Positions 2,730-57,403 are shown, counted from the first letter of the stretch. The stretch is 64,000 nt of DNA from Dehalococcoidia bacterium (GCA_034423195.1 DAOUIZ010000051.1:56174-120173), one strand, 5' to 3'. The notes: generated from the letters alone by a model not told the origin. Made by a program: numbers and translations.

Positions 2730-3548
2730 ATGCCCGAGCTCCCCGAGGTCGAAAACACCCGGCGCTACCTGGCCGAAATCGGCCTTCCCGGCAAGACCAT
2801 CGCCCTCGCCACCATCGGCTGGGCCAACAGCGTCAGGAGCCCGTCCCTGGAGGATTTCGTTCTCGACCTGCCCGGAGGGACGGTCCAGGCAGTCAATCGC
2901 CGCGGCAAGTACCTTCTGGCCCCTTTGGACACCGGCCAGACCTGGGTCCTCCACCTCGGCATGACCGGCGGCCTCCGCATCCACCCCAGGCACCAGCCCT
3001 CTCCTTCCATGGTCCGCCACACCGTTGACTTCACCGACGGCACCCAGCTCCGCTTCATCGACCCCCGCAAGTTCGGACACCTCTGGCTCGTCGACGATCC
3101 CACCCAGGCCACCGGAAAAATGGGGCCGGAACCTCTGTCCGAAGACTTCAACGACGCTGTCCTTGCCGCCATCCTCTCCAACCGCACGGCCCCCATCAAG
3201 GCCCTTCTCCTGGAGCAGCACATCATTGCCGGGCTCGGCAACCTCTACGCCGACGACGCCCTCTACCGCGCCGGCATACACCCGGAGCGCCCTGCCTCCA
3301 GTCTCTCCCCGGATGAAATATCCCGCCTCCGGGATTCCATCGTACAAGCCCTGGAACACTCCCTGTCCCAGTATGACCAGGGCCGCCGCGACCACTGGCC
3401 CGACCCTCCCTTCGGCCTCTCTCCCTGGCTCATTCCCCGCTCACCGGATGCCCCCTGCGTCCGCTGCGGGAACGGGACAATGGAACAAACCAAGGTCCGC
3501 GCCCGCACCACCTTTTACTGTCCTATCTGCCAACCGCCCCCGCCCTAA
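2730..3548 (+). CDS. mutM: formamidopyrimidine-DNA glycosylase
   Basis: N-terminal MPELPEVE catalytic motif. C-terminal zinc finger CVRCG...CPICQ. 272 aa, typical Fpg length. Lies 6 nt after ileS. Confidence 0.93.
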   Translation: MPELPEVENTRRYLAEIGLPGKTIALATIGWANSVRSPSLEDFVLDLPGGTVQAVNRRGKYLLAPLDTGQTWVLHLGMTGGLRIHPRHQPSPSMVRHTVDFTDGTQLRFIDPRKFGHLWLVDDPTQATGKMGPEPLSEDFNDAVLAAILSNRTAPIKALLLEQHIIAGLGNLYADDALYRAGIHPERPASSLSPDEISRLRDSIVQALEHSLSQYDQGRRDHWPDPPFGLSPWLIPRSPDAPCVRCGNGTMEQTKVRARTTFYCPICQPPPP

Positions 3549-3730
3549 TACCTTCTTTCCCCGCGCCGATGGCCTGCCCTTCCCTCAACCGTCGTTTCCT
3601 GACAGTTGGCGGTTGACAGCCCCGCTGCCACAACACTAACGTTGGTAGAGCAAGCTATTCCGTCACCTCCTTGCTGGGGTTGCGTTTTGAATTTCGCTGG
3701 ACGTCCTTGTTCACTACAAACAAGCCCGGA

Positions 3731-3912
3731 ACGTTCAACAAAGGGAATGTCCCTCTGCCCACGTTCAAACATCGCAAAAATGTCCCGAAATGTCTCAGAG
3801 TGTCTCAACCACGCCCCGGTCGTGTCCCGGAAACGGCGCAAGCGGAGCCCAATTTGGCGCGAATGTCCCGTGGATTCAAGGAGTTTTGAGCACGAAAGCG
3901 CCAAAATGTCCC
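3731..3912 (+). promoter_or_regulatory. array of seven same-strand AATGTC[CT]C sites, helically phased
   Basis: TGTCCC or TGTCTC starts at 3748, 3781, 3791, 3801, 3823, 3864 and 3907. Spacings are 33, 10, 10, 22, 41 and 43 nt, close to multiples of 10-11. Two longer units ACGTTCAA-N-AATGTCCC at 3731-3753 and 3761-3786. Region is non-coding and about 50% GC. Confidence 0.5.
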
Positions 3913-3980
3913 ACAAGCAGAAAAACTGGGTTTCCTGTTGTTCTTGGCTGGTCTTGACACCCGCCCGGGCAGCCCGTTTA

Positions 3981-4009
3981 TTGACGTTGCCGCCACCACT
4001 GCGTACACT
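3981..4009 (+). promoter_or_regulatory. sigma70-like promoter for the fusion gene
   Basis: TTGACG (3981-3986), 17-nt spacer, TACACT (4004-4009). Implies a 5' UTR of about 160 nt before the ATG at 4176. Confidence 0.45.
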
Positions 4010-4175
4010 GGACAAGGCTGGATTTGGCCGCCTCCGCGCCGTTGGTGACGACTGAGCGGCCTTTCTTGTGCCTGCGACCACCCGGAAGCCTCGCGTTTCC
4101 GGTCCCGTCGGACGGTGTCTACCCGTCCCCCTTATCCGCATTACCCTCATGTACTCTTGCAAGAAGGTGAAAATC

Positions 4176-6245
4176 ATGGCGGGCTACCAGAAACATGAAG
4201 CGCAGGATTGGGCTTGGGAAAACCTGCGCGGGCAGTGGAGCACCCTCGTCACCCCTTTCACGCCCGACAAGTCCTTTGACGAAGACGGAATGCGCCGGAA
4301 CATCCGCCACATCCAGTCCCTCGGCACCCGCGGCGCCGGCTGCACCTGGGCCATGGGCGAGTTCTGGAGCCTCACCTTTGACGAGCGCAAGCATGTCATG
4401 TCCACCGTCGCCGATGAGTCCATCGGAAGGTGGCTGTCCGGCGCCCACGTCACCCACACCTCCACCCGCGAAATGCTGGCCCTCGCCGAACACGCCGAGC
4501 AGGTTGGAATCGACCTTCTCATGGTGGCCCCGCCCTACATGGTCGCCAAGACCGAGGACCAGGTCTTCGAGTACGTGAAACTGCTGGCCGACCACACGAA
4601 CCTGGCCATCATGTTCTACAACTCCCCCCAGTTCGGCTTCATCATGAGTCCCCAGGGACTGAACCGCCTCTGCCAGATTCCCAACGTTGTCGGCGTCAAG
4701 GAAGCCAGCTTCAACCAGCAGACCTCCATCGAGACCCACCTCCTGGTCGGCAAGAGGGCCATCATCAGCACCCCCGACGAGTGGATCTTCCCCAAGGCCC
4801 AGGAACTCGGCTTCCACCAGCAGGTCATGTTTGCCAACACCTCCGACTGGCGCTTCGACACCTCCGACGCCAACTACTACGTCCAGTTCATCGACCGCGC
4901 CACCAGCGGCGACCTCGACCTCGACTTCTACAACGCCCACCTCAAGGACCTCAAGGCCCTTTCCGACAAGTGGTGGGGCGGCACCGTCAAGAAGTACAAC
5001 GGCGTAATCCCCACCACCATGTGCAAGTATTGGGGCGAGCTTATGGGAATGGCCGGCGGCGGCGTCCGCCATCCCCTCATCGACATGACCGCCGACGAAA
5101 AGGCCGAGCTCAAGAGCGAGTTGACCCCGCTTATTCCTCAGCCGGAACCCGCACGGGTTCCCGCCCGCGCCCGGTCTCATGCCTCTTGGCTCAACGAGAA
5201 GAGCCAGCGCGAAGTCGACTTCTCCGGCATGATGCTCCTCGTCAGTGTCCAGAACATGGAGGAAGCCCTCGAAGCCGACCGCGGCGGCGCCGACATCATC
5301 GACGTCAAGAACCTCCAGGAAGCCCTCGTCGGCTCCGGCCACCCCGACCTGGTTGAAGCCGTCCGCGAGCGCATTCCCGAGGAAAAGCACGTCAGCGTCA
5401 CCCTCGGCGTCGTCCCCAACCAGGCTGGAACCGTCGCCATGGCTGTCCGCGCCGCCGGTATGCTCGACGCCACCTCCGTCAAGGTCGGATTCTGCGAGAC
5501 CGACTACGACTCGGCCCTGGAGGTCCTTCGCGAGTCCCGCCGCGCCCTCAAGGGATTTGACACCAAGCTCATCGGCTCTCTCTTCGCCGACAACCAACTC
5601 TTCGGCGGCCTCGAACCCCGCCAGATGGTCAAGCTTGCCCGCGAAAGCGAGTGCGACGGTTTCCTTATCGACACCCTGACCAAGGACGGCCGCAACCTCT
5701 TCGACTTCATCCCCGAGCCCGAACTCCGTGAGATGGTCATGGAAGCCAAGCAGTACGGCCTCAGCACCGCCCTATCCGGCCACCTCCGCCTCAGCGACCT
5801 TGACGAGCTCGCCCGGATTAACCCCGACATCGTCGGCGTCCGTGGCGCGGTCTGCCGCAGCGGCGAGCGGGAAGCCGCCGTCGCCGCCGAGGCCGTCGCC
5901 CACTTCAAGCACGAGCTCGACCTCCGCAAGACCGGCATCATCGACCCCCGCGCCAACGGCAACGGCCACAGCAACGGGATCGCCGCCGCACCCAACGGCT
6001 CCCACGCCGGGGGATGGGCCGTCGTCGACGGCCGGGGCAAGAACTGCGCCGGAGTCATCGCCGCTCTCACCCGCCAGATTGACAACGACGGCCACTCCTT
6101 CGTCGAAGCCATCCTCCACGACGCCCTGAACATCTACGACGTCCTCTACTGGGCCGAGCAGGCCGGCCACAAGCTCATCACCCAGCGCCGGGAGGATGGC
6201 GGCCTGGTCCGCGTCCTCATCCAACCCGGCGCCAACGGACGCTAA
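4176..6245 (+). CDS. tri-domain fusion: DapA/NAL-family class I aldolase + MfnB-like (DUF556) domain + TusA/SirA-like C-terminal domain
   Basis: ATG at 4176, 5 nt after RBS AAGAAGGTGA. N-terminal domain: AMGEFWSLTFDERK, MFYNSPQ and Schiff-base Lys context VVGVKEAS. Middle domain (from about 5229): LLVSVQNMEEALEADRGGADIIDVKN, KVGF, IDTLTKDGRNLFDF, ALSGH, DIVGVRGAVC. Tail (from about 6010): GKNCAGVIAAL. Confidence 0.8.
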   Translation: MAGYQKHEAQDWAWENLRGQWSTLVTPFTPDKSFDEDGMRRNIRHIQSLGTRGAGCTWAMGEFWSLTFDERKHVMSTVADESIGRWLSGAHVTHTSTREMLALAEHAEQVGIDLLMVAPPYMVAKTEDQVFEYVKLLADHTNLAIMFYNSPQFGFIMSPQGLNRLCQIPNVVGVKEASFNQQTSIETHLLVGKRAIISTPDEWIFPKAQELGFHQQVMFANTSDWRFDTSDANYYVQFIDRATSGDLDLDFYNAHLKDLKALSDKWWGGTVKKYNGVIPTTMCKYWGELMGMAGGGVRHPLIDMTADEKAELKSELTPLIPQPEPARVPARARSHASWLNEKSQREVDFSGMMLLVSVQNMEEALEADRGGADIIDVKNLQEALVGSGHPDLVEAVRERIPEEKHVSVTLGVVPNQAGTVAMAVRAAGMLDATSVKVGFCETDYDSALEVLRESRRALKGFDTKLIGSLFADNQLFGGLEPRQMVKLARESECDGFLIDTLTKDGRNLFDFIPEPELREMVMEAKQYGLSTALSGHLRLSDLDELARINPDIVGVRGAVCRSGEREAAVAAEAVAHFKHELDLRKTGIIDPRANGNGHSNGIAAAPNGSHAGGWAVVDGRGKNCAGVIAALTRQIDNDGHSFVEAILHDALNIYDVLYWAEQAGHKLITQRREDGGLVRVLIQPGANGR

Positions 6246-6277
6246 CCCCCGTCCGGCAACCAGGCGGAGCCTTCAAG

Positions 6278-6301
6278 CCCCCGGCCTTCCTTGGCCGGGG
6301 G
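6278..6301 (+). terminator. intrinsic terminator after the fusion gene
   Basis: Stem CCCCCGGCC, loop ttcctt, stem GGCCGGGGG, followed by TTATTG. Lies 33 nt after the stop codon. Confidence 0.6.
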
Positions 6302-6345
6302 TTATTGCAAGGTGCGTCCCCACAATCCCGGAGCATTCTCTATAC

Positions 6346-6400: not shown

Positions 6401-6430
6401 TTGACCCTCTTTTCCACCCCACCCTATAAT
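6401..6430 (+). promoter_or_regulatory. sigma70-like promoter of the Mo-hydroxylase operon
   Basis: TTGACC (6401-6406), 18-nt spacer, perfect TATAAT (6425-6430). Lies 65 nt upstream of the ATG at 6495. Confidence 0.55.
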
Positions 6431-6494: not shown

Positions 6495-7418
6495 ATGCCC
6501 CGTTTCGAATACCTCGAACCCCAGACTCTCGAAGAAGCCCACTCCATGCTCCAGGAACACGGCAGCCGCGCCCGCATCGTCGCCGGCTGCACCGACTTCC
6601 TAGTCCGCTGGCGCACCGGCTTCTGGACCCCCGAGTTCGTGGTCAACCTCCTGCACATCCCCGGCCTGAACATGATTCGCTTCGATCCCACCGATGGACT
6701 GCGGATCGGCGCCCTCGTCACCATCCAGGACTTGGAGGACCACCCCGCCGTCCGTGAGCATTACCCAGCCCTCGCCACCGGCGCCACCTCCTTCGCCGGA
6801 GTCCAGGTCCGCAACCTGGCCACCGTCGGCGGCAACGTCTGCAACGCATCCCCCGCCGGGGATACCCTTCCCGCCCTCTTGGCTTTGGATACCCAATGCC
6901 GCATCAACGGCCCCGCCGGTGAGCGTTGGCTTCCCCTGGATGAACTATTCGCCGGCCCCGGCCGCACCAACCTGCAACCCGCTGAGATCCTGACGGAATT
7001 CCACCTGCCCGCGCCGCCGCCCAACAGCGGCTCCCTCTACATCAAGCACAGCCCCCGCGGCGCGATGGATATCTCCGCCGTAGGAGTCGCCTCTTGGGTA
7101 TCCCTGGAATCTCCCGGCGGTCCCTGCGTTGATGCCAGGATCGCCCTCGGCGCCGTTGCCCCCACCGTGATCCGCGTCCCATCCGCCGAAGCCGTGCTTC
7201 AGGGACAGACTCTCACCTCCGAAATCATCAACGCCGCTGCCGAGGAAGCCCAGCGCGTCGCCACGCCCATCGACGATGTTCGCGCCACCGGAAACTACCG
7301 CAGGTCCATCGTCGCCGTCCTTACCCGCCGCACTCTCCAGCACGCGGCAGCCATCGCCGGCGGCGCGGATACATCCTTCGCCGCCCAGCGCCGTCTCGCC
7401 ATTCAAACTGCTTTCTAA
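6495..7418 (+). CDS. xanthine dehydrogenase family, FAD-binding (medium) subunit
   Basis: CoxM/XdhB-like N-terminus FEYLEPQTLEEAHSMLQEHGSRARIVAGCTDF. ATVGGNVCNASPAGD motif. 307 aa. Confidence 0.9.
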   Translation: MPRFEYLEPQTLEEAHSMLQEHGSRARIVAGCTDFLVRWRTGFWTPEFVVNLLHIPGLNMIRFDPTDGLRIGALVTIQDLEDHPAVREHYPALATGATSFAGVQVRNLATVGGNVCNASPAGDTLPALLALDTQCRINGPAGERWLPLDELFAGPGRTNLQPAEILTEFHLPAPPPNSGSLYIKHSPRGAMDISAVGVASWVSLESPGGPCVDARIALGAVAPTVIRVPSAEAVLQGQTLTSEIINAAAEEAQRVATPIDDVRATGNYRRSIVAVLTRRTLQHAAAIAGGADTSFAAQRRLAIQTAF

Positions 7419-7477
7419 ACTACTCCCACTGACCCACTCCCACCGTTCCTGCCCTCGCGTGGCATAAGGAGACCGGA

Positions 7478-7951
7478 ATGAAGAAGCCCCTTCAGTTGAC
7501 CGTCAACGGAGAACTCCGCCAGATCTTCGTCGAAACTTACTATTCCCTCCTCGACACCCTCCGCGATGAGCTGCATCTCACCGGCGTCAAGAAGGGATGC
7601 GACGAAGGGGACTGCGGGGCCTGCACCGTATTCCTCAACGGCAAGCCCGTGACCTCCTGCATGGTTCTCGCCCACAACGCCCACGACTCCAGCGTCACCA
7701 CCATCGAGGGCCTGGGCTCGGTGGATTCCCTCCACCCCGTCCAGCAGGCCTTCGTCGACTACGGCGGCCTCCAGTGCGGCTTCTGCATCCCCGGCCTCAT
7801 AATGTCAGGAGCGGCCCTCCTGGACCGCAACCCCGATCCCACCGAAGAGGAAGTCCGCATCGCCATCGGAGGCAACCTCTGCCGCTGCACCGGATACTCC
7901 AAGGTGGTCCAGGCGATCCTCGCCGCCGCCGAAACCGCCCGTTCCCGCTGA
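7478..7951 (+). CDS. xanthine dehydrogenase family, (2Fe-2S) small subunit
   Basis: Plant-type cluster CDEGDCGACTV and second cluster QCGFCIPG...CRCTGY. RBS AAGGAG upstream. 157 aa. Confidence 0.92.
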   Translation: MKKPLQLTVNGELRQIFVETYYSLLDTLRDELHLTGVKKGCDEGDCGACTVFLNGKPVTSCMVLAHNAHDSSVTTIEGLGSVDSLHPVQQAFVDYGGLQCGFCIPGLIMSGAALLDRNPDPTEEEVRIAIGGNLCRCTGYSKVVQAILAAAETARSR

Positions 7952-7999
7952 CCCGAAACCCGGCGTCATCCCCAACCCTACCCGCCAAAGGAGACCGCG

Positions 8000-10282
8000 A
8001 TGGTTGAGTTCAAAGTCCTCGAGCAGAATCACCCCCGCGTCGACGGATTGGACAAGGTGACCGGCCGGGCCACCTACGCCGCCGACGTCTACCTCCCGGG
8101 GATGGCCTGGTGCAAGCTCGCCACCAGCACCCGGTCCCACGCCCGCATCGTCAGCATCGACGTTTCCCGGGCCCGCGAGCTACCCGGCGTCTACGCCGTC
8201 ATCACTGGCTCTGACTTCCCCGACATCCACTTCGGCTCCGGCGGCCTCAAGGACCGCTACGTCATGGCCCGCGACGAGGTCTACTACGTCGGCGAACCCA
8301 TCGCCGCCGTCGCCGCCGTCGACGAGATGACCGCCCAGGAAGCCGTCGACCTCATCCAGGTCGAATACGAGGACCTGCCCGTGGTGGTCGATGTCCTTGA
8401 CGCCCTCCGGGAAGGTTCCTCCACCGTCCATCCCGACCTCCCCGACTTCGAGGGATTCGGGTTCGCCCTCGGCGGAGAGAACGTCTGCACCCTCCTCGAC
8501 GCCGACCGGGGCGACGTGGACGCCGCCTTCCAGCAGGCCGACCTCGTCATCGAGGACACCTTCCGCAGCCAGGGCATCAACCAGGGCTTCCTTGAACCGA
8601 TGGCCTGTGTCGCCGGTGTCGAAGCCAACGGCCGCCTCACCGTCTGGGCCTCGACCCAGGGCCCCTACCAGGTCCGCGCCCAACTGGCTTCCGTGTTGGA
8701 TATGCCCCTCTCCAACATCCGGGTCATCCCCATGGAGCTGGGCGGCGGCTTCGGCGCCAAGCTGCGTCTTGCCTTCGAAGCCTACCCCGCCCTGCTGTCC
8801 ATGAAGACCGGACGCCCGGTCAAGCTGGTCAACACCCGCGAGGAGGTCTTCACCCTCAACGGTCCCCGCCTTCCCGTCGCCAACTACATCCGCTCCGGCG
8901 TCAACAGCGACGGAAAGATAATCGCCCGGGAAGCCTTCAGCGTCTTCGATGTCGGCGCCTACCTCGGCGCCGGCCCCAACTCCGGCGTCGGCCACGGATT
9001 GGGCGCCTACAACGTCCCCAACTTCCGTCTCCGCTCCTACGGCGTCTACACCAACAAGGTCTACGTCGGCTCCTACCGCGCCTCCGGCGTCGCCGACATG
9101 ACCTTCGCCGTCGAGTCCCACACCGACAACATCGCCCACAAGCTCGGCATGGACCCGGTCGAGTTCCGACGGATCAACTGCCTCCGGGAAGGCGACACCG
9201 CCGTCAACGGCTCCGCCATGCCCCGCAACGGCCTCCAGGAATGTCTCGACGCCCTCAAGGAGCGCCTTGACCTGCCGAAGAAGCTTGGCCAGCGCCGCGG
9301 TGTCGGCGTGGCCCTATGCGAGTGGCGCAGCGGCAGCGGCCCCTCCACGGCCTCGATAAGCGTCAACGAGGACGGTACCGTCAGCCTCCTCACCGGCTCG
9401 GTGGACATCTCCGGCAGCGACACCTCCCTGGCCGCCATCGCAGCCGAGACCCTCGGATTGCCCATGGAGCGCGTGATCGTCGCCAAGCGCGATACCGACC
9501 TCGCCCCCTTCACCGGCCCCAGCGGCGGCAGCCGCATCGTTTACAGCCAGGGAACCGCCGTCCAGCGCGCCGCCGAGGATGCCCGGGACAAGCTCATCGC
9601 CATCGCCGCCGACCGCTTCGGCGTCCCCGCCGATGCCCTCGCCTGCGAGGACGGAGCGGTGTTCGTCCAGGACAACCCGCCCCAGAAGCTGACCATCAGC
9701 CAGCTTGCCTCCATGAGTCTCAACTCCCGCGGCGGACCCATCATCGGCACCGCCTCCCTCTCCACCATGCCCTTCACCCCGGTTTACAGCGCCCACGGCG
9801 CCGAGGTCCTCGTGGATGAGGACACCGGCCAGGTCCGCGTCACCCGCTACGTTCAGGCCCAGGACGTCGGCACCGCCATCAACCCCATGGCCGTCGAAGG
9901 ACAACTCGACGGCGGAGCCGTCCAGGGCATCGGCCGCGCCCTCACCGAGGATATGCTCTTCGACCCCGAGACCGGCGCGGTGCGCAATCCCTCCTTTGCC
10001 ACCTACCTCATGCCGCTCGCTGTGGACCTTCCTGACATCGAGAACGTCCTCATCCGCGTCCCGGCTGAAGACGGTCCCTTCGGCGCCCGCGCCGTCGCCG
10101 AACCCCCCGGATTCGGGGCTCCCGCCGCCATCGCCAACGCCATCTACGACGCCGTCGGAGTCCGAATCAACGAAATGCCCCTGTCCGCCGAGCGCGTCCT
10201 CGCCGCCCTCCAGGGCCAGCCTGCCGCTGAAATCCCCATGGACGTGCAGGCTCTCAAGGAAGCCGAAGGACTCACCCCATAG
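8000..10282 (+). CDS. xanthine dehydrogenase family, molybdopterin-binding large subunit (not a form I CO dehydrogenase)
   Basis: 760 aa with aldehyde-oxidase/XDH a/b-hammerhead and MoCo-domain motifs (GGGFG, GSYRASG, EPPGFGAP). The CODH form I loop VAYRCSFR is absent. Confidence 0.9.
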   Translation: MVEFKVLEQNHPRVDGLDKVTGRATYAADVYLPGMAWCKLATSTRSHARIVSIDVSRARELPGVYAVITGSDFPDIHFGSGGLKDRYVMARDEVYYVGEPIAAVAAVDEMTAQEAVDLIQVEYEDLPVVVDVLDALREGSSTVHPDLPDFEGFGFALGGENVCTLLDADRGDVDAAFQQADLVIEDTFRSQGINQGFLEPMACVAGVEANGRLTVWASTQGPYQVRAQLASVLDMPLSNIRVIPMELGGGFGAKLRLAFEAYPALLSMKTGRPVKLVNTREEVFTLNGPRLPVANYIRSGVNSDGKIIAREAFSVFDVGAYLGAGPNSGVGHGLGAYNVPNFRLRSYGVYTNKVYVGSYRASGVADMTFAVESHTDNIAHKLGMDPVEFRRINCLREGDTAVNGSAMPRNGLQECLDALKERLDLPKKLGQRRGVGVALCEWRSGSGPSTASISVNEDGTVSLLTGSVDISGSDTSLAAIAAETLGLPMERVIVAKRDTDLAPFTGPSGGSRIVYSQGTAVQRAAEDARDKLIAIAADRFGVPADALACEDGAVFVQDNPPQKLTISQLASMSLNSRGGPIIGTASLSTMPFTPVYSAHGAEVLVDEDTGQVRVTRYVQAQDVGTAINPMAVEGQLDGGAVQGIGRALTEDMLFDPETGAVRNPSFATYLMPLAVDLPDIENVLIRVPAEDGPFGARAVAEPPGFGAPAAIANAIYDAVGVRINEMPLSAERVLAALQGQPAAEIPMDVQALKEAEGLTP

Positions 10283-42526: not shown

Positions 42527-43168
42527 TTGCGCCAACCCCGTTTTATGGTTGATTTGACCTACAATTCGGAGCCATTGCCGTCCCGTACCTGGGACATAGA
42601 CCGCGCCGAAGGCCAGTCCGTCTCGGACCTTATCGCCGCTTCCACGGCTCCCCTGGAAGTGCCCTTCATCGAGGTCCCCGACGACCTCAAGGGCAACCTG
42701 GTGGTTACTTCCATTGACGCCCTGGTCAACTGGGGCAGGAAGTCGGCCCTGTGGCCGGTGGCCTTCGGCTTGGCCTGCTGCGCCTTCGAGATGATGGCCA
42801 CCGCCATGGGACGCTTCGACATCGCCAGGTTTGGGATGGAGGCCTTTCGCGCCTCCCCGCGCCAGGCCGACCTGATGATCGTGGCCGGCACCGTCACCTG
42901 GAAGATGGCCGTCCCCATCAAGCGCATATACGACCAGATGGCCGATCCCAAGTGGGTAATATCAATGGGAGTCTGCGCCACCAGCGGCGGGCCCTACTTC
43001 GGTTCGTACAGCGTCGTTCCAGGCGTGGACCATATCATCCCCGTCGACGTCTATGTCCCCGGGTGCCCTCCCCGGCCCGATGCCCTGCTTTACGGCATCA
43101 TGGAGCTCCACGAGAAAATCAAGAAACAGCAGAACCTGGCCCGCCGAACCGGGAACAGTGGTTCCTGA
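42527..43168 (+). CDS. nuoB: NADH-quinone oxidoreductase subunit B
   Basis: N2-cluster motifs [17 protein letters not shown] and CPPRP. TTG at 42527 or ATG at 42545. Confidence 0.93.
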
Positions 43169-43611
43169 TGACTGTTGCTGCCCTTTCCGGCGAACACCTC
43201 CGGCAGCGCCTGTCCGAGCTTTCGCCTGCGCCGGTGGAAGCCGCGGACGGCGGAGCCGTGTGGGTATCCCCGGAGAGCGTCGGCGACGTGGCAAGGTTCC
43301 TGCGGGATGACCCGGACCTGGATTTTCAGTTCCTCAACTCCATCAGCGCCGTCGATTTTGTCGATCACTTCCAGGTCGTGTACCATCTGACCTCCTTGTC
43401 CCTGGAGCACACCGGCGTTGTCAGGACCAGGCTTTACGGGCGGGACGATTTGACGCTCCCGTCGGTCTACAACGTCTGGCGCGGGGCGGACTTCCAGGAA
43501 AGGGAAATCTGGGACCTGATGGGAATCAGGTTCGACGGCCATCCCAACATGAAGCGCATTCTGCTGTGGGAGGGCTTTGAGGGCCATCCTCTGCGCAAGG
43601 ATTACCTTTAG
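43168..43611 (+). CDS. nuoC: NADH-quinone oxidoreductase subunit C
   Basis: ATG overlaps the nuoB stop (TGATG). FQEREIWDLMGIRFDGHP motif. 147 aa. Confidence 0.9.
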   Translation: MTVAALSGEHLRQRLSELSPAPVEAADGGAVWVSPESVGDVARFLRDDPDLDFQFLNSISAVDFVDHFQVVYHLTSLSLEHTGVVRTRLYGRDDLTLPSVYNVWRGADFQEREIWDLMGIRFDGHPNMKRILLWEGFEGHPLRKDYL

Positions 43612-43634
43612 GTAGCCTCGGAAAGCCGGGCGTT

Positions 43635-44804
43635 GTGACTTCCGTTTATCCTGATGAACCTTCTTCCCCCAACACCCTCCGGGCCGACAACCCCATGACC
43701 ATCCGCACCGAACCCATGACGGTCAACGTGGGGCCCCAGCACCCCAGCACTCACGGGGTGTTCCGGTTGCGCATCACCTTCGACGGGGAGGAGATTCTGG
43801 AAGTTGAGCCCGTCCTTGGCTACCTGCACCGGGGAACGGAAAAGCTGGCCGAAGAGCGCAACTACGTCCAGGTCGTCACCCTCACCGACCGGCTGGACTA
43901 CACCTCCTCCATGATCAACAACCAGGCGTACTGCCTTGCGGTGGAAAAGCTTCTTGGCGTGGAACCCCCGCCCCGGGCCAAATTCCTCAGGACCCTGGTT
44001 GCCGAACTGCAGCGCATCGCCAGTCACTTGGTGGCGGTGGGGTTCTTCATCCAGGAGCTGGGCGCCTTCGGCACCCCCCTGATGTATACCTTCCGCAGCC
44101 GCGAGCGCATCCTGGACCTGTTCGAGATGCTTTGCGGGGCCCGCATAACGGTCAGCTATATGCGTCCCAGCGGAGTGTTCTCCGACGCTCCCCCGGATTT
44201 CTGGCCTGCGCTGGCCCGGTTCCTCGATGACTTCCGCGGGGAGTTTGAAGAGCTGGAACAACTGCTGCTGGAAAATGAAATCCTGGTGGCCCGCACCCGG
44301 GGAGTCAGCCCGCTGCCCGCCGGACTGGCCATCAACTCCTCGGTCTCCGGCCCGGTGCTGCGCGCGGCGGGCGTTCCGTGGGATTGGCGGAAGATGGACC
44401 CCTATGACGCCTACGATCAGGTGGAGTTCGATGTTCCGGTGGGCACTCAGTCCGACAACTACGACCGCTTTTGGGTCAGGATGCAGGAAGTACGCCAGAG
44501 TCTTCGCATAATTGACCAGTGCGTCGAGCGGATCGAGCCAGGCCCCGTGCGTTTGTCCGGCCTTCCCCTGGTGGTGCGCCCCGAACCCGGCGCCGAGGCC
44601 TACGGCCGGGTGGAAGCGTCGAAGGGCGAACTGGGGTTCTACCTGATCAGCGACGGGGGGATTTCTCCTTACCGGTGCAAAATCCGCTCCCCGTCCCTGA
44701 TTAATCTGACCGTGACCGAACACCTCCTGGTGGGATGGAAACTGGCCGATATGATAGTCTCGCTGGGCAGCGTGGACATCAACATGGGTGAGGTTGACCG
44801 GTGA
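43635..44804 (+). CDS. nuoD: NADH-quinone oxidoreductase subunit D
   Basis: GPQHPSTHGVFRL and GYLHRGTEKL motifs. 389 aa. Confidence 0.94.
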   Translation: MTSVYPDEPSSPNTLRADNPMTIRTEPMTVNVGPQHPSTHGVFRLRITFDGEEILEVEPVLGYLHRGTEKLAEERNYVQVVTLTDRLDYTSSMINNQAYCLAVEKLLGVEPPPRAKFLRTLVAELQRIASHLVAVGFFIQELGAFGTPLMYTFRSRERILDLFEMLCGARITVSYMRPSGVFSDAPPDFWPALARFLDDFRGEFEELEQLLLENEILVARTRGVSPLPAGLAINSSVSGPVLRAAGVPWDWRKMDPYDAYDQVEFDVPVGTQSDNYDRFWVRMQEVRQSLRIIDQCVERIEPGPVRLSGLPLVVRPEPGAEAYGRVEASKGELGFYLISDGGISPYRCKIRSPSLINLTVTEHLLVGWKLADMIVSLGSVDINMGEVDR

Positions 44805-46036
44805 GTTGTCGTCTGTCCAGCGACAACATCCTGTTTGAGAACGCCCTGTACCGGGTGGTCTATGACGCGGCCGGCTTGTTCCTGCCCTGCTGGCTGGCCT
44901 ACGTGGCGGCGGGCCTGGTGATGATGCTTATCCTGGTCAACGGCGTGCTGCTGGGATCTGGTATCGTTACCTGGCTGGAACGCCGGGTGTTGGGACGGCT
45001 GCAGAACCGCGTGGGTCCCAACCGCTGGGGGCCTTTCGGCATCCTCCAGCCCATCGCGGACCTCGCCAAGCTGCTCACCAAGGAAGACCTGGTCCCGGCG
45101 GGAGCCGACCGGCTGGTGTTCAACCTGGTGCCGTTGGTGATGATGGCTCCCCTGCTGTTGATGACTGCCGTAATCCCCTTCAACAGGAACACCGCCCTCG
45201 CCGACCTGAACGTCGGGGTGCTGTTCATCCTCGCCGTCAGTTCCCTGAGCACCCTGGCCGTTATCATGGCCGGCTGGTCATCCAACAACCGCTACGCCCT
45301 GTTCGGGGCCGCCCGGTCGGTGGCCGTACTCATCAGTTACGAGATACCGGTGGTGTTGTCGCTCCTCGGCGTGGTCATCGTGGCCGGTTCCATGTCGCTG
45401 GGAGACATCGTTGGCGCGCAAACGGTGCCCTTCCTGCTGGTGCAGCCCCTGGCGCTGTTTGTTTTCCTGGCGGGAATGTCGGCGGAGTTGAACCGCACGC
45501 CCTTTGACGTGGCCGAAGCCGAGTCGGAGATTATCGCCGGCTACCATACCGAGTACAGCGGAATCAAGTTCGCCCTGATTTTTGCCACGGAAACCGGGGC
45601 GATGATCGTGGTGTCCGCCACTATCTGCACCCTCTTCCTGGGAGGCTGGCACGGCCCCTTCCCCAGCTACCTGGGCTGGCTCTGGTTCCTGCTCAAGACC
45701 CTGCTGATAATCTTCGTCTTCATCTGGATCAGGGCCACCTATCCCCGGCTGAGGGTAGACCAGATAATGGCGTTTTCCTGGAAGTTCCTGCTTCCGTTGA
45801 GCCTGATTAACCTGGCGGCCACCGCTATCCAGGTGTATTTCCTGCGCGGCCCGGACGGAGCCTTATCCAGCGGCGATCTCTGGCTGATGGCCGCGATCAA
45901 CATCGTTCTCGCGGCGGTCTGCATCTTCGTTTTCGGGGACATCGTGCGGGTAAAGTCCCGCCGTGGACGCCGGGCGGTGGGTACGGCCCAGACGTCAGTT
46001 ACGGGCGCGGCCCAAGCTGGGCGGGAGGTGAGTTAA
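44801..46036 (+). CDS. nuoH: NADH-quinone oxidoreductase subunit H
   Basis: GTG overlaps the nuoD stop (GTGA), so no nuoE/F/G can lie between them. RVGPNRWGPFGILQPIADL and PFDVAEAESE motifs. Confidence 0.93.
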   Translation: MSCRLSSDNILFENALYRVVYDAAGLFLPCWLAYVAAGLVMMLILVNGVLLGSGIVTWLERRVLGRLQNRVGPNRWGPFGILQPIADLAKLLTKEDLVPAGADRLVFNLVPLVMMAPLLLMTAVIPFNRNTALADLNVGVLFILAVSSLSTLAVIMAGWSSNNRYALFGAARSVAVLISYEIPVVLSLLGVVIVAGSMSLGDIVGAQTVPFLLVQPLALFVFLAGMSAELNRTPFDVAEAESEIIAGYHTEYSGIKFALIFATETGAMIVVSATICTLFLGGWHGPFPSYLGWLWFLLKTLLIIFVFIWIRATYPRLRVDQIMAFSWKFLLPLSLINLAATAIQVYFLRGPDGALSSGDLWLMAAINIVLAAVCIFVFGDIVRVKSRRGRRAVGTAQTSVTGAAQAGREVS

Positions 46037-46627
46037 GTGTACGGAATGGGAATGGCCCGGGGTCTGCTGGTAACCCTGCGCAACCTGACGAAGAAGCCCT
46101 TCACGGTTGCCTATCCCGAGGAGCGGCTGCAGCAGCATCCCCGGTTTCGCGGAGAGGAGTTCGTCTGGTACGAGGAGCGCTGCACCGGCTGTGCGTCATG
46201 CGCCAAGTATTGTCCGCTCGGGATAATCAAGATTGTCACGGAACCCAGCGGGACCGCTCCCAGGCAGGGCGACAAGTACCGGCTGGAAGTGTTCGACATC
46301 GAGATTCAGCGCTGCATGTTCTGCGGGCTCTGCGTGGAGGCCTGCCCCTACGATTGCCTGTACATGGGCAGCGGTTTCGAGCAGGGCAAGTACAGCCGCA
46401 AGGACATGGTGATCCATGTGGACCAGTTGAGGAATTCCGACAAGCATCCCAGCACCTACTTCCGGCCCCAGCTGGAAGCGTCGGGATACAATCCCAGGGG
46501 AGGGCGTCCCCTGGACTGGAAGGAGGTTGGCCGGGAGGGGTGGCGCTGGCACCTCCGGGAAAAGACCGGTAAGCGGCTCGAAAACCTTCCCCATGGTCCA
46601 GACGCCGGGCCGGAGGACGTGGGCTAA
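46037..46627 (+). CDS. nuoI: NADH-quinone oxidoreductase subunit I
   Basis: Two ferredoxin-type motifs: CTGCASCAKYCP and CMFCGLCVEACP. Confidence 0.93.
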   Translation: MYGMGMARGLLVTLRNLTKKPFTVAYPEERLQQHPRFRGEEFVWYEERCTGCASCAKYCPLGIIKIVTEPSGTAPRQGDKYRLEVFDIEIQRCMFCGLCVEACPYDCLYMGSGFEQGKYSRKDMVIHVDQLRNSDKHPSTYFRPQLEASGYNPRGGRPLDWKEVGREGWRWHLREKTGKRLENLPHGPDAGPEDVG

Positions 46628-47215
46628 GTGCTTTTCCAGGACGTGGTTTTCTGGGCGCTGTCCGTAGTGGCGATTGCCGGTGCTGTCGGGGTGGTGCTGG
46701 TCCGGGACTTGTTCCGGGCGGCCCTCTTGCTGGCATTGGTGTTCGTCACGGTGGCCGGATTTTTCGTCCTGATGAGCGCCGAGTTCCTGGCCACGGTGCA
46801 AGTCCTGATTTACGTCGGCGCCATCTCCATCCTGTTCGTTTTCGCCGTGATGCTGACCCGGGACGTCCGGCGCGGCAACCTGCCCAACCGTCTCCAGATT
46901 CCCGCCGTCGTTCTCCCTGTTCTGTTGCTGGCAGCTATGGTCGTCACCATCATGGCTACGGACTGGCAGTTCATCCCGGAGGACGCCCGGGCCAGGGCGG
47001 ACTTGGTGCAGACTCAGTCGGTCAGCGTAGTTTCCGAGGCTGACCTGGAAGGAGCGGGTTTTGCTTCACCGGAAGAAGCCCGCGACGCCCGGGAAGCCGG
47101 GTTGGCGGACCTGCTGGTCGGCGACTTCGTTCTGGCTTTCGAGGCGGTTTCGGTGTTGCTCTTGGCGGCCCTCATCGGGGCGCTGGCGCTGGCGCGCGGG
47201 CGCCAGGGGGCCTAG
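46628..47215 (+). CDS. nuoJ: NADH-quinone oxidoreductase subunit J
   Basis: Position in the operon. TM profile with VQVLIYVGAISILFVF. Confidence 0.88.
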   Translation: MLFQDVVFWALSVVAIAGAVGVVLVRDLFRAALLLALVFVTVAGFFVLMSAEFLATVQVLIYVGAISILFVFAVMLTRDVRRGNLPNRLQIPAVVLPVLLLAAMVVTIMATDWQFIPEDARARADLVQTQSVSVVSEADLEGAGFASPEEARDAREAGLADLLVGDFVLAFEAVSVLLLAALIGALALARGRQGA

Positions 47216-47217
47216 CC

Positions 47218-47547: not shown

Positions 47548-47665
47548 CATGCCCGGGAAGGTCTGCATTCTGGTGTTGAAGCGGGGCAGGGAACCGGGCA
47601 CTGCCCTGCCGGAAGCCGCCGATTCCGGCGGGTACGGGTCCGGGCTGCGGGTCGGAATTTAGAAT

Positions 47666-51462: not shown

Positions 51463-51474
51463 CGGCGGCTGGTA

Positions 51475-56367: not shown

Positions 56368-56370
56368 CCG

Positions 56371-57333: not shown

Positions 57334-57338
57334 CTCAT

Positions 57339-57370
57339 CGCGGATACCCAAACCCGCGGATACCCAAACC
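57339..57370 (+). repeat. perfect tandem duplication, 2 x 16 bp (CGCGGATACCCAAACC)
   Basis: Copies at 57339-57354 and 57355-57370, in the sdhB to CCG-gene spacer. Confidence 0.8.
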
Positions 57371-57403
57371 AAGGAACGACCCTACCAACAACCGGAGGCC
57401 AAA

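What the first reader, a model, noticed from the sequence alone, without database searches (positions are those of the whole stretch)
4176..6245. One ORF fuses a DapA-type aldolase, an MfnB-type domain and a TusA-like tail
The 689-aa ORF runs without a stop through three recognisable modules.
- About 4176-5100: a dihydrodipicolinate synthase/N-acetylneuraminate lyase-family class I aldolase. It has GEFWSLTFDERK, YNSPQ and the Schiff-base lysine context GVKEAS.
- About 5229-5940: a domain matching the methanofuran enzyme MfnB, which is 4-(hydroxymethyl)-2-furancarboxaldehyde-phosphate synthase (DUF556). It has GGADIIDVKN, KVG, D-T-x-x-KDG-x-x-LFD and DIVGVRGAxC.
- About 6010-6242: a TusA/SirA-like fold whose usual CPxP motif is changed to C-A-G-V.
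I do not know this architecture from any characterised protein. No other mfn genes and no H4MPT pathway genes are in the window. Two class I aldolase chemistries on one chain suggest a dedicated condensation pathway from triose phosphates plus a 2-oxoacid. The gene is monocistronic, with its own promoter, a 160-nt leader and its own terminator. It sits behind the phased-repeat array and directly upstream of a non-CODH Mo-hydroxylase operon.
Basis: partly seen in the sequence, partly recalled or inferred. Interest (0 to 1): 0.72.

Follow-up and report, generated by a model that had tools for sequence, protein, structure and literature searches.

The report
Three-enzyme fusion tied to quinone synthesis
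This is a real, strongly conserved gene of marine SAR202 bacteria that fuses two aldolase-type enzymes to a small cysteine-bearing domain; in related organisms the same three parts are separate neighbouring genes, sometimes inside the operon that makes the respiratory quinone, so it probably belongs to an undescribed part of quinone biosynthesis rather than to methanofuran synthesis.

Summary
Window 4176-6245 (+) is one 689-aa gene with three modules:
- a DHDPS/NAL-type class I aldolase;
- a complete MfnB-type barrel with all four MJ1099 catalytic residues;
- a TusA-fold tail whose cysteine is invariant but whose CPxP motif is replaced.

**It is not an assembly artefact.** All 80 genome loci fetched, almost all Dehalococcoidia/SAR202, carry the uninterrupted ORF. 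All three modules are conserved and the two linkers are not.

**New finding.** Elsewhere the three modules are separate adjacent genes, either MfnB-like > TusA-like > DHDPS-like or DHDPS-like > MfnB-TusA. They are 50-66% identical to the window modules. The window's MfnB module is only 39% identical to true MfnB. So this is one conserved three-part enzyme system.

**Context.**
- In two Dehalococcoidia-type lineages (L077, L176) the unit sits inside the UbiD(MqnL)-UbiA-UbiX-UbiE/MenG operon.
- In a third lineage (L081-L083) it is followed by UbiD-UbiA.
- In a fourth the DHDPS-like gene abuts a MenA-like prenyltransferase.
- No mfn or H4MPT genes were seen in any fetched stretch.

**Best reading.** It is a ring-precursor synthase for a prenylated quinone, built from triose phosphate plus a 2-oxo acid. 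This rests on gene context only; substrates, product and the cysteine's role are unknown. The link to the downstream Mo-hydroxylase is not universal.

The parts
3981..4009 (+). Promoter-like site TTGACG-17-TACACT, which would give a leader of about 160 nt
   Evidence: 9 of 12 consensus matches; consensus match only. The leader is conserved only in L001 and L059. No Rfam hit.
4163..4170 (+). Shine-Dalgarno-like GAAGGTGA, 5 nt before ATG 4176
   Evidence: An SD-like purine run (GAAGGTGA in the closest relatives, GGAGGC in others) precedes the ATG in all ten loci printed. This supports 4176 rather than GTG 4068 as the start.
4176..6245 (+). Complete coding sequence, 689 aa plus stop: the DHDPS-like / MfnB-like / TusA-like fusion
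4176..5135 (+). Module 1 (aa 1-320): DHDPS/NAL-superfamily class I aldolase barrel plus C-terminal helices. Schiff-base Lys175 (4698-4700) and Tyr148 (4617-4619) are kept. The Thr44/Thr45, Tyr107 and Arg138 equivalents are Ala59/Met60, Met122 and Gln152.
   Evidence: Pfam E 2e-29. dapA equivalog scores 84 bits against cut-off 206. Alignments to DapA structures. Foldseek TMt about 0.8. Invariant residues.
5136..5228 (+). Linker 1 (aa 321-351), variable and low-confidence. It coincides with the gene boundary in split orthologues.
   Evidence: Conservation about 0.33 against 0.74-0.81 in the modules. pLDDT below 50 at aa 324-332. Split genes end and start here.
5229..5921 (+). Module 2 (aa 352-582): MfnB-type (4-HFC-P synthase family) TIM barrel with Asp376, Lys378 (5307-5309), Lys436 (5481-5483), Asp499 and Lys503
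   Evidence: Pfam E 2e-58, full length. phmmer to MJ1099 (4rc1) at 3e-45, with D25/K27/K85/D151 aligned. Foldseek TMt 0.88, 39% identity. Residues invariant. NCBIfam MfnB equivalog cut-offs not reached.
5922..6011 (+). Linker 2 (aa 583-612): a helix, then a Gly/Asn-rich variable stretch
   Evidence: Conservation 0.43. pLDDT below 50 at aa 595-612.
6012..6227 (+). Module 3 (aa 613-684): TusA/SirA-fold domain. Invariant Cys624 (6045-6047) starts helix 1. The motif is DGRGKNCAGV in place of the canonical CPxP.
6277..6302 (+). 10-bp GC hairpin (GCCCCCGGCC/GGCCGGGGGU) followed by UUAUUG, 32 nt after the stop: a terminator-like structure with a weak U tract
   Evidence: -40 kcal/mol for 6246-6320, z -3.25. 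Not picked up by the consensus terminator scan.

Best explanation
**What is shown.** The gene encodes a single-chain version of a conserved three-component enzyme system. The components are an MfnB-like class I aldolase/cyclase, a DHDPS-like Schiff-base aldolase, and a TusA-fold domain with one invariant cysteine. Other lineages encode them as two or three adjacent genes. The fusion is real. The three modules are co-inherited. The Schiff-base lysines (K175, K378), the MfnB catalytic set and Cys624 are strictly conserved.

**What is inferred from families.** The MfnB-like module condenses triose phosphates (glyceraldehyde-3-P/DHAP) into a reactive C6 aldehyde, either 4-HFC-P or a close variant. 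The DHDPS-like module forms an enamine from pyruvate or another 2-oxo acid on Lys175 and adds it to that aldehyde. As in DapA, this leaves a ring-forming 2-oxo-acid or carboxylate product. The TusA-like cysteine serves as a third catalytic or carrier site, either as a sulfur relay or by covalently holding an intermediate.

**What is inferred from gene context.** The product is an aromatic or heteroaromatic carboxylic acid that feeds the UbiA-type prenyltransferase, the UbiD/UbiX decarboxylase and the UbiE/MenG methyltransferase. On this reading the system supplies the head-group precursor of the membrane quinone of these respiring Chloroflexota. It is not part of methanofuran biosynthesis.
For: **Fusion is real and constrained.**
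- 80 of 80 loci are intact. Modules are conserved (0.74/0.81/0.75) and linkers are not.
- Only one full-length representative exists among 1.84 billion clusters at 50% identity.

**Rosetta-stone evidence.**
- L081-L083: separate MfnB (246 aa), TusA (75 aa) and DHDPS-like (324 aa) genes in a row.
- L084, L086/L087, L173/L174, L176: DHDPS-like followed by MfnB+TusA.
- Of 42 further loci with at least 2.5 kb on both sides, 34 have both partners within 3 kb.
- Split proteins are 50-66% identical to the window's enzyme modules, and L081's stand-alone TusA is 31% identical to the tail. The window's MfnB module is 39% identical to MJ1099.
- The variant Cys motif is shared by all TusA-like orthologues.

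**Catalytic residues.**

**Quinone context.**
- L077: UbiD-UbiA-UbiX-fusion on one strand, tightly spaced with overlapping ORFs. Its UbiD scores 612.7 bits on the equivalog 'menaquinone biosynthesis decarboxylase' TIGR03701, cut-off 495.9.
- L176: UbiD-UbiA-UbiX-[DHDPS-like]-[MfnB/TusA]-UbiE/MenG-cupin. The cluster UbiD-UbiA-UbiX-UbiE(-cupin) seen in three other homologue contigs (L177-L179) lacks the insert.
- L081-L083: the trio is followed by UbiD (top hit TIGR03701, below cut-off) and an MqnP-like UbiA (also below cut-off), with UbiX nearby.
- Seven loci have a MenA-like prenyltransferase (below cut-off) next to the DHDPS-like gene.

**Need for a quinone.** The window itself encodes complex I and a succinate:quinone reductase.

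**Literature.** A 2026 survey reports many Chloroflexota lineages as apparently devoid of known quinone pathways (PMC13386864).
Against: - No biochemical data exist for any member.
- In 79 of 80 loci with the fused gene, including this window, no UbiA/UbiD/UbiX lies within 10 kb. There the conserved neighbours are housekeeping genes: ThiD, IleRS, Fpg, SbcC.
- Carbon arithmetic is awkward. 4-HFC-P (C6) plus pyruvate (C3) does not give 1,4-dihydroxy-6-naphthoate (C11), the known MqnP substrate.
- Menaquinone contains no sulfur, so a sulfur-relay role for the TusA-like Cys would be unexplained.
- The DHDPS-like module lacks the Thr/Tyr proton relay of DapA/NAL, so its competence as an aldolase is not certain.
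- A peat-metagenome lineage couples the trio to an acyl-CoA synthetase rather than to quinone genes.
- I could not test whether trio-bearing genomes lack the known early menaquinone genes (men, or mqnA-E).
Confidence: 0.45

Rival explanations
1. It is the first enzyme of a methanofuran- or methylofuran-type cofactor pathway. The MfnB module makes 4-HFC-P for a C1 carrier, and the other two modules are accessory.
For: - Full-length PF04476 match with all MJ1099 catalytic residues and the same fold.
- H4MPT/methanofuran-linked genes have been reported in some Chloroflexi (PMC5020050).
- One Actinomycetota-labelled locus (L079) has a class III aminotransferase two genes downstream. This could stand in for MfnC.
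Against: - No mfnA/C/D/E/F, formylmethanofuran dehydrogenase or H4MPT genes turned up among the window genes scanned or the loci flanks annotated.
- The NCBIfam MfnB equivalog models score 197 and 185 bits against cut-offs of 341 and 304.
- Trio-type MfnB-like proteins are 59-65% identical to each other across distant lineages but only 39% to MJ1099.
- SAR202 papers describe folate-linked C1 oxidation, and none mentions methanofuran.
- This reading does not explain the obligatory DHDPS-like and TusA-like partners or the quinone-operon context.
Confidence: 0.08
2. It makes a sulfur-containing small molecule unrelated to quinones, such as a thio-substituted furan or thiophene, or a thiazole-like heterocycle. 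The TusA-like Cys delivers persulfide sulfur to the aldolase product.
For: - The Cys is invariant at the TusA persulfide position in the fused and the stand-alone forms, and the fold is TusA-like.
- Conserved synteny with ThiC/ThiD (thiamine pyrimidine branch) 3-8 kb upstream in SAR202.
- NifU_N lies next to the gene in L079.
- From general knowledge: thiazole synthase ThiG is also a Schiff-base TIM barrel using a pyruvate/G3P-derived sugar and a sulfur carrier.
Against: - The CPxP motif typical of sulfur-relay TusA proteins is missing in the whole group.
- No cysteine desulfurase, rhodanese or ThiF/MoeB-type partner recurs among 212 neighbours.
- ThiD is separated from the gene by IleRS and Fpg, so that synteny looks inherited rather than operonic.
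- The operon-level links are to UbiD/UbiA/UbiX/UbiE.
Confidence: 0.17
3. It is a catabolic or salvage enzyme of furan, sugar-acid or triose metabolism. For example, a KD(P)G-aldolase-like module plus a triose-phosphate-condensing module, with neighbours resembling the furoate/HMF degradation enzyme classes. The TusA-like tail would be structural or regulatory.
For: - The recurrent neighbours are enzyme classes that also occur in the furfural/HMF pathway (my own knowledge). These are a three-subunit XDH-family Mo-hydroxylase in SAR202, an AMP-forming acyl-CoA synthetase plus an aldehyde dehydrogenase in the peat lineage, and UbiD/UbiX decarboxylases.
- There is a weak NCBIfam hit to archaeal KD(P)G aldolase.
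Against: - L077's UbiD passes the equivalog cut-off for the menaquinone decarboxylase. It is flanked by UbiA, and in L176 by UbiE/MenG. These have no role in furan catabolism.
- The aldehyde dehydrogenase is a P5C dehydrogenase equivalog on the opposite strand.
- The Mo-hydroxylase is absent from many loci and is separately transcribed.
- 66-96% identity to the window protein across the 80 genome loci fetched suggests a housekeeping biosynthetic role rather than a niche catabolic one.
Confidence: 0.12
4. The fusion is an assembly or gene-calling artefact that joins separate genes.
For: Split versions of the same genes do exist in other lineages.
Against: - The uninterrupted ORF is present in all 80 independent genome loci fetched, including records titled 'chromosome'.
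- It is also present in more than 120 protein clusters from ENA, JGI, NCBI and Logan.
- The linkers vary in sequence and length but stay in frame.
Confidence: 0.01

Closest known systems
MfnB, 4-(hydroxymethyl)-2-furancarboxaldehyde-phosphate synthase (MJ1099; PDB 4rc1/4u9p; Pfam PF04476)
   Same: TIM-barrel fold (TMt 0.88). The full-length profile matches. Asp25, Lys27, Lys85 and Asp151 are all conserved, so Schiff-base chemistry on triose phosphates is likely.
   Different: - Only 39% identical, and below the NCBIfam equivalog cut-offs.
- Always partnered with, or fused to, a TusA-like and a DHDPS-like protein.
- No methanofuran or H4MPT context was found.
- Found in aerobic SAR202, a Planctomycetes-labelled MAG and soil/peat metagenome contigs of unknown taxonomy.
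DapA / N-acetylneuraminate lyase / KD(P)G aldolase family (Pfam PF00701)
   Same: Barrel plus C-terminal helical domain. The Schiff-base Lys (K175) and the catalytic Tyr (Y148) are conserved. By analogy, it attacks an aldehyde with a 2-oxo-acid enamine.
   Different: - The Thr44/Thr45 motif GTTGE is W-A-M-G-E. Tyr107 is Met. Arg138, which binds aspartate semialdehyde in DapA, is Gln.
- Family-specific motifs: GEFWSLT, FYNSPQFG, KEASFN, QQVMFANTSDWRFD, KYWGELMG.
- dapA, nanA and KdgD equivalog cut-offs are all missed.
TusA/SirA/YedF/YeeD sulfur-carrier family (Pfam PF01206; PDB 3lvj, 1dcj, 3hz7, 1pav)
   Same: Beta-alpha-beta-alpha-beta-beta fold. The Cys sits at the N-terminus of helix 1. The motif D-x-x-G-x-x-C precedes it, and a D-x-x-x-W-x-x-x-x-G-H stretch follows.
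   Different: - CPxP is replaced by C-A-G-V (C-[KT]-G-[AV]-I in stand-alone orthologues).
- The window domain is below the Pfam cut-off.
- No desulfurase or Dsr/Hdr partner was seen.
Early steps of menaquinone biosynthesis (MqnA/E/B/C/D of the futalosine route; MenF/D/H/C/E/B of the classical route)
   Same: If the context inference is right, this system occupies the same logical place. It would deliver a ring carboxylate to the UbiA-type prenyltransferase, the UbiD/UbiX decarboxylase and the MenG/UbiE methyltransferase.
   Different: No sequence relationship. It uses aldolase chemistry from central C3 units instead of chorismate-derived chemistry. The product is unknown and may not be a naphthoate.
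GriI/GriH-type aromatic ring synthesis (3-amino-4-hydroxybenzoate from aspartate semialdehyde plus DHAP). Recalled from my own knowledge, not tested here.
   Same: A precedent for building a benzoic-acid-type ring from C3/C4 primary metabolites with a class I aldolase, bypassing shikimate.
   Different: Different aldolase family and a different partner enzyme. No TusA-like component. It works in secondary metabolism.

Membership tests
MfnB / 4-HFC-P synthase (PF04476) | Full-length match to the family profile above the curated cut-off | tested here: met
   198.3 bits against 22.4, profile positions 1-227 of 228.
MfnB / 4-HFC-P synthase (PF04476) | Catalytic Asp25, Lys27, Lys85 and Asp151 of MJ1099 | tested here: met
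   They align to D376, K378, K436 and D499. These are invariant in 53 homologues.
MfnB / 4-HFC-P synthase (PF04476) | Same function as MfnB by NCBIfam equivalog models | tested here: not met
   NF002573 scores 197 against 341. NF002575 scores 185 against 304.
MfnB / 4-HFC-P synthase (PF04476) | Pathway context: other mfn genes, formylmethanofuran dehydrogenase or H4MPT enzymes | tested here: not met
   None among the window genes scanned or the loci flanks annotated. Whole genomes could not be scanned.
MfnB / 4-HFC-P synthase (PF04476) | Formation of 4-HFC-P from glyceraldehyde-3-phosphate | not testable with these tools
   Needs an enzyme assay.
DHDPS/NAL class I aldolase superfamily (PF00701) | Profile match, barrel fold, Schiff-base Lys and catalytic Tyr | tested here: met
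   102.6 bits against 22.1. K175 and Y148 align to K161 and Y133. TMt 0.75-0.82 to DapA/NAL structures.
DapA (4-hydroxy-tetrahydrodipicolinate synthase) proper | Thr44-Tyr107 proton relay, Arg138 for aspartate semialdehyde, and the equivalog score | tested here: not met
   The equivalents are A59/M60, M122 and Q152. TIGR00674 scores 84 against 206.
TusA/SirA family (PF01206) | Profile match above the curated cut-off | tested here: inconclusive
   The window domain scores 16.5 against 28.6. PF01206 is on record for about 25 of 120 homologues, unmarked for L081's stand-alone TusA gene and marked weak for L171/L172. A broad profile hits the SirA-like protein 1pav at E 0.0011. A profile of the fused domains alone hits nothing.
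TusA/SirA family (PF01206) | Two-layer beta-alpha-beta-alpha-beta-beta fold with Cys at the start of helix 1 | tested here: met
   Domain model pLDDT 85.8. TM 0.71-0.75 to 3lvj_C, 1dcj, 3hz7 and 8k1r_B, though Foldseek E-values are only 0.03-0.05. C624 is invariant.
TusA/SirA family (PF01206) | Cys-Pro-x-Pro motif | tested here: not met
   The motif is C-A-G-V here and C-[KT]-G-[AV]-I in stand-alone orthologues.
TusA/SirA family (PF01206) | Accepts persulfide sulfur | not testable with these tools
   Needs biochemistry.
Prenylquinone (menaquinone-type) biosynthesis gene set | Co-location with UbiA/MqnP, UbiD/MqnL, UbiX/MqnM and UbiE/MenG | tested here: inconclusive
   Met in L077, L176 and L081-L083. 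A MenA-like gene is adjacent in 7 loci. Not met in this window or in 79 of 80 fused-gene loci.
Prenylquinone (menaquinone-type) biosynthesis gene set | Genome lacks the known early steps (men, mqnA-E) while having the late steps | not tested
The only indirect support is the survey statement that many Chloroflexota lack known quinone pathways.

The most novel reading that the evidence does not exclude
The MfnB-like, TusA-like and DHDPS-like proteins together form a previously unrecognised early pathway for a respiratory quinone head group. It would be built from triose phosphates and a 2-oxo acid instead of chorismate. It would operate in SAR202 and other Dehalococcoidia, a Planctomycetes-labelled MAG and several uncultured soil and hot-spring lineages. 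The product would be either a third route to the menaquinone ring or the ring of a new, possibly O- or S-heterocyclic, prenylquinone. This would explain why many respiring Chloroflexota appear to lack any known quinone pathway.
Probability: 0.3. Interest if true: 0.92.

Novelty: new variant of a known kind. Interest (0 to 1): 0.78.

Why it matters
SAR202 bacteria are among the most abundant heterotrophs of the deep ocean and of sponge microbiomes. They respire: complex I and succinate:quinone reductase genes lie in this very window. Yet a 2026 survey found that many Chloroflexota have no recognisable quinone pathway.

Here is a strongly conserved gene of unknown function present in at least 118 species representatives in GTDB. 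Its three modules travel together across phyla, and in several lineages they sit between the quinone prenyltransferase/decarboxylase genes and the methyltransferase gene. That makes it a concrete, testable candidate for the missing steps.

Whatever the product, it shows that MfnB-type chemistry, known only from methanofuran synthesis, has a second, widespread use outside C1 metabolism. It also gives a clean Rosetta-stone case linking a TusA-fold protein to aldolase chemistry.

Tried and rejected
- **Riboswitch or conserved leader.** Rfam scan of 3400-4300 at E up to 1 found nothing. The upstream 260 nt aligns only with the two nearest relatives.
- **Mo-hydroxylase as an obligatory partner.** It is downstream in only about 50 of 80 loci and replaced by DUF1326 in 13. 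It has its own promoter-like site. Its best family hits (4-hydroxybenzoyl-CoA reductase alpha, XdhA) are far below cut-off.
- **Methanofuran pathway.** No supporting genes or literature.
- **Thiamine link via ThiC/ThiD synteny.** Considered. The genes are separated by IleRS and Fpg and never form an operon with the fusion.
- **Furan-catabolism (Hmf-like) reading of the neighbours.** Weakened by the MqnL equivalog score, the UbiA and UbiE genes, and the aldehyde dehydrogenase being a P5C dehydrogenase.
- **Neighbour enrichment.** 138 further neighbours of split orthologues showed no other recurrent Pfam family.
- **C-terminal domain against PDB sequences.** A profile of the fused C-terminal domains alone gave no TusA hit.
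- **P0274/P0131-type stand-alone DHDPS-like proteins.** P0274's locus shows no MfnB partner in the 12.7 kb held, of which only 1.7 kb lies downstream. They appear to be paralogues.
- **Supplementary tables of the quinone survey.** No SAR202 or Dehalococcoidia entries in the text held.
- **Taxonomy of the 48%-GC three-gene lineage (L081).** Could not be established.


Full report
**1. Observation**

The ORF listed as 4068-6245 (+) starts at an upstream GTG. The ATG at 4176 is the likely start. It follows GAAGGTGA, and an SD-like purine run precedes the ATG in every one of the ten loci printed, although the rest of the leader is not conserved. This gives 689 aa.

Its codon-position GC (0.64/0.42/0.87) is that of the window's real genes. 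The overlapping antisense ORFs show the inverse pattern.

Pfam results:
- PF00701 (DHDPS), aa 18-316, E 2e-29.
- PF04476 (4-HFC-P synthase), aa 354-577, E 2e-58, over the whole profile.
- PF01206 (TusA), aa 616-683, sub-threshold at 16.5 bits against a cut-off of 28.6.

**2. The fusion is real and constrained**

- A word-indexed search of 5.8 billion proteins returned more than 120 clusters at 90% identity. All are 67-95% identical to the window protein and nearly all are full length, with the same two or three Pfam domains. None carries a functional name beyond 'DHDPS family' or 'UPF0264'.
- A scan of one genome per GTDB species found 118 relatives. Almost all of the 80 loci kept are Dehalococcoidia or SAR202 MAGs, some of them records titled 'chromosome'.
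- All 80 fetched loci carry an uninterrupted 675-735 aa ORF. Identity to the window residue averages 0.74, 0.81 and 0.75 in the three modules but 0.33 and 0.43 in the two linkers.
- An exhaustive HMMER search of 1.84 billion representatives at 50% identity found a single full-length representative, P0121. Everything else was a fragment or a one- or two-module relative.

The architecture is therefore common within one clade, tight in sequence, and uncharacterised.

**3. The modules**

*MfnB-like module.*
- It aligns to MJ1099 (PDB 4rc1) at E 3e-45.
- Asp25, Lys27, Lys85 and Asp151 match D376, K378, K436 and D499. All are invariant in 53 homologues.
- The AlphaFold model (mean pLDDT 73.6) superposes on MJ1099 with TMt 0.88 at 39% identity.
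- It fails the NCBIfam MfnB equivalog cut-offs: 197 against 341.

*DHDPS-like module.*
- It keeps the Schiff-base lysine (K175 in GVKEAS) and the catalytic tyrosine (Y148).
- GTTGE has become W-A-M-G-E. Tyr107 is Met and Arg138 is Gln.
- It fails all DapA, NanA and KdgD equivalog cut-offs.
- It is a Schiff-base enzyme of the superfamily, but not DapA.

*C-terminal module.*
- A separate model (pLDDT 85.8) has a beta-alpha-beta-alpha-beta-beta fold.
- Its best whole-domain matches are TusA (3lvj_C, TM 0.75/0.81), YhhP, a SirA-like protein and YeeD. The Foldseek E-values are weak because the domain is small.
- Cys624 opens helix 1 and is invariant.
- A profile that includes the stand-alone orthologues hits the SirA-like protein Ta1170 at E 0.0011, with the cysteines aligned.
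- The canonical CPxP is absent from the whole orthologous group.

**4. Surroundings in the window**

- Upstream lie IleRS and Fpg. Then comes a 627-nt intergenic region of lower GC.
- That region holds a promoter-like site at 3981-4009 and two pairs of 10-nt-phased AAATGTCCC-like motifs.
- It has no Rfam hit and is conserved only in the two closest relatives.
- Downstream there is a 10-bp GC hairpin at 6277-6302 with a poor U tract.
- A good promoter-like site follows at 6401-6430.
- Then comes a three-subunit XDH-family Mo-hydroxylase. Its best family matches (4-hydroxybenzoyl-CoA reductase alpha, XdhA) are far below cut-off.
- The other window genes I scanned with Pfam, about 40 of the likely genes, are housekeeping. 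They include complex I, a succinate:quinone reductase with a CCG subunit, MDH, IDH and an H+-pyrophosphatase. None is an mfn or H4MPT gene.

Across the 80 SAR202 loci, the block ThiD-IleRS-Fpg-fusion-...-PNPOx-like-SbcC is conserved. The Mo-hydroxylase is present in about 50 loci. DUF1326 takes its place in 13. I read this as inherited synteny, not as a functional link.

**5. The decisive evidence: split orthologues**

Stand-alone relatives of the DHDPS-like module were found by profile search. Their genomic places were then read.

- In a 48%-GC lineage the order is HxlR | MfnB-like (246 aa) - TusA (75 aa) - DHDPS-like (324 aa) - UbiD - UbiA, with UbiX nearby.
- In a Planctomycetes MAG and in several long marine contigs with SAR202-like gene order, a DHDPS-like gene is immediately followed by a 321-326 aa MfnB+TusA gene.
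- A metagenome scan with an alignment of these orthologues gave 80 more loci. Together with the contig look-ups L081-L174, 94 loci encode a DHDPS-like protein and 42 of them have at least 2.5 kb on both sides. Of those 42, 34 have both an MfnB-like and a TusA-like coding region within 3 kb, mostly in the order MfnB > TusA > DHDPS-like.
- The split enzyme proteins are 50-66% identical to the window modules, and L081's stand-alone TusA is 31% identical to the tail. The window's MfnB module is only 39% identical to MJ1099.
- All TusA-like partners carry the same variant motif, VDGT..C[KT]G[AV]I ... DVPSRIDV.AWA.RKGH.

The three modules are thus a conserved functional unit that has been fused in one SAR202 clade. 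The fusion junctions coincide with the variable linkers.

**6. What the unit is linked to**

| Locus | Arrangement |
|---|---|
| L077 (Dehalococcoidia MAG OZ250168.1) | UbiD-UbiA-UbiX-fusion, one strand, tightly spaced with overlapping ORFs |
| L176 (780-kb contig) | UbiD - (DUF559) - UbiA - UbiX - DHDPS-like - MfnB/TusA - UbiE/MenG - cupin |
| L177, L178, L179 (contigs of close UbiD homologues) | UbiD-UbiA-UbiX-UbiE(-cupin), without the insert |
| L081-L083 | Trio followed by UbiD and UbiA, with UbiX nearby |
| Seven loci of a 45-54%-GC lineage | MenA-like prenyltransferase divergently adjacent to the DHDPS-like gene; no MfnB or TusA within about 5-10 kb |
| L087, L173, L174, L175 | UbiD-UbiA-UbiX cluster about 9 kb or more from the split pair |

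- L077's UbiD scores 612.7 bits on TIGR03701, 'menaquinone biosynthesis decarboxylase' (cut-off 495.9). Its UbiA is of the MqnP/'ubiA_other' type.
- In L176 the pair sits exactly between the UbiX and UbiE genes of the conserved quinone operon.
- In L081-L083 the UbiD has TIGR03701 as its top hit but below cut-off. The UbiA is MqnP-like, also below cut-off.
- Homologues of this UbiD are numerous; the few that carry a source name are from Chloroflexi, Dehalococcoidia or SAR202, and NCBI names them menaquinone biosynthesis decarboxylase.

Other recurrent neighbours:
- An AMP-forming acyl-CoA synthetase, 13 loci of a peat lineage.
- A zinc-ribbon membrane protein.
- Heme o synthase, or a cox operon, in four loci.

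No other Pfam family is enriched among 138 further neighbours.

**7. Interpretation**

*Shown.*
- A real fusion.
- A conserved three-part system.
- Intact Schiff-base and MfnB catalytic residues, and an invariant cysteine.
- Operon-level association with quinone late-step genes in at least three lineages, plus a MenA-like neighbour in a fourth.

*Inferred.*
- The MfnB-like module condenses triose phosphates to a reactive aldehyde.
- The DHDPS-like module adds a 2-oxo-acid enamine, as DapA does. This leaves a carboxylate on a newly formed ring.
- The product is then handed to UbiA, UbiD/UbiX and UbiE.

All recurrent partner enzymes (UbiA, UbiD, the acyl-CoA synthetase, and possibly the 4-hydroxybenzoyl-CoA-reductase-like Mo enzyme) act on aromatic carboxylic acids or their CoA esters. 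This fits a carboxylate product. A 2026 survey notes that many Chloroflexota appear devoid of known quinone pathways and suggests undiscovered quinones (PMC13386864). This window encodes quinone-dependent respiratory complexes.

*Weak points.*
- The evidence is gene context only.
- 79 of 80 fused-gene loci, including this window, have no quinone gene within 10 kb.
- C6 plus C3 does not give the C11 naphthoate expected for MqnP.
- Menaquinone has no sulfur, so the role of the TusA-like Cys is unexplained.
- The DHDPS-like module lacks the usual proton relay.
- I could not check whether the known early menaquinone genes are absent from these genomes.

**8. Rivals**

- *Methanofuran or methylofuran synthesis.* The catalytic residues support it. 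It is undercut by the missing pathway context, the failed equivalog test, the separate orthologous group and the literature.
- *A sulfur-containing metabolite unrelated to quinones.* It stays possible because of the invariant Cys and the ThiC/ThiD synteny. No sulfur-mobilising partner recurs.
- *A catabolic, Hmf-like reading of the neighbours.* It is weakened by the MqnL equivalog, the UbiA and UbiE genes, and the P5C-dehydrogenase identity of the aldehyde dehydrogenase.
- *An artefact.* Excluded.

**9. Verdict**

- Its contextual claims (Mo-hydroxylase, leader, repeats) do not generalise.
- The system is an uncharacterised variant built from known enzyme families.
- The most novel reading, a new early route to a respiratory quinone head group in Chloroflexota and other phyla, is not excluded. 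I rate it at about 0.3.

Noticed in passing
window 3774-3807 and 3890-3923 (within the 3549-4175 intergenic region): Two pairs of 10-nt-phased AAATGTCCC/AAATGTCTC-like motifs, plus an 11-nt inverted repeat (3850-3860 / 3898-3908), in a 56%-GC spacer. No Rfam hit. Conserved only in the two nearest relatives. Possibly binding sites for a regulator.
   Followed up: partly
window 6495-10282: Three-subunit XDH-family Mo-hydroxylase (FAD, 2Fe-2S and Mo subunits). Its best NCBIfam matches are 4-hydroxybenzoyl-CoA reductase alpha (547 bits against cut-off 995) and XdhA. It is not a CO dehydrogenase and its substrate is unknown. It follows the fusion in about 50 of 80 SAR202 loci and is replaced by DUF1326 in 13.
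   Followed up: partly
window 54688-58288: A succinate dehydrogenase-like flavoprotein, a 2Fe-2S/4Fe-4S subunit and a CCG/HdrB-like subunit: a non-classical succinate:quinone reductase. Together with the complex I genes at 42527-52998, this implies a membrane quinone.
   Followed up: no
L177 10001-14916, L178 10001-15495, L179 10001-15997: Operon UbiD(MqnL)-UbiA-UbiX-UbiE/MenG on three contigs carrying close homologues of L077's UbiD. A small cupin follows in L177 and L178. Small toxin-antitoxin or nucleotidyltransferase genes are often inserted between UbiD and UbiA. No MqnA/C/D/E-type genes within 10 kb.
   Followed up: partly
L091, L093-L095, L104, L120, L140: A 45-54%-GC lineage from JGI metagenome contigs of undetermined source. 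Here the DHDPS-like orthologue sits beside a MenA-like prenyltransferase and an MFS transporter, with no MfnB or TusA gene within about 5-10 kb.
   Followed up: partly
L101, L110, L118, L127, L149, L159, L171, L172 and others (13 loci): Peat- and soil-metagenome lineage in which MfnB-TusA-DHDPS is followed by a 580-aa AMP-forming acyl-CoA synthetase (MbcS-like, below cut-off). Often a small membrane protein, a convergent P5C dehydrogenase and a 2Fe-2S/FAD oxidoreductase follow.
   Followed up: partly
L084 1-7502; L096, L098, L102: The trio lies next to a cytochrome c oxidase operon (SCO1, COX1-4, heme o synthase) in a Planctomycetes MAG. It lies next to a heme o synthase gene in three peat contigs. 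This is another respiratory-chain association.
   Followed up: no
window 4119-5597 (-) and other long antisense ORFs: Long 'shadow' ORFs lie opposite real genes (up to 492 aa) with GC1 above GC3. This is typical of 65%-GC DNA. They are not genes.
   Followed up: yes
L079 7876-9777: In the one Actinomycetota-labelled locus, the fused gene (735 aa) is followed by a NifU_N/IscU-like gene and a class III aminotransferase.
   Followed up: no
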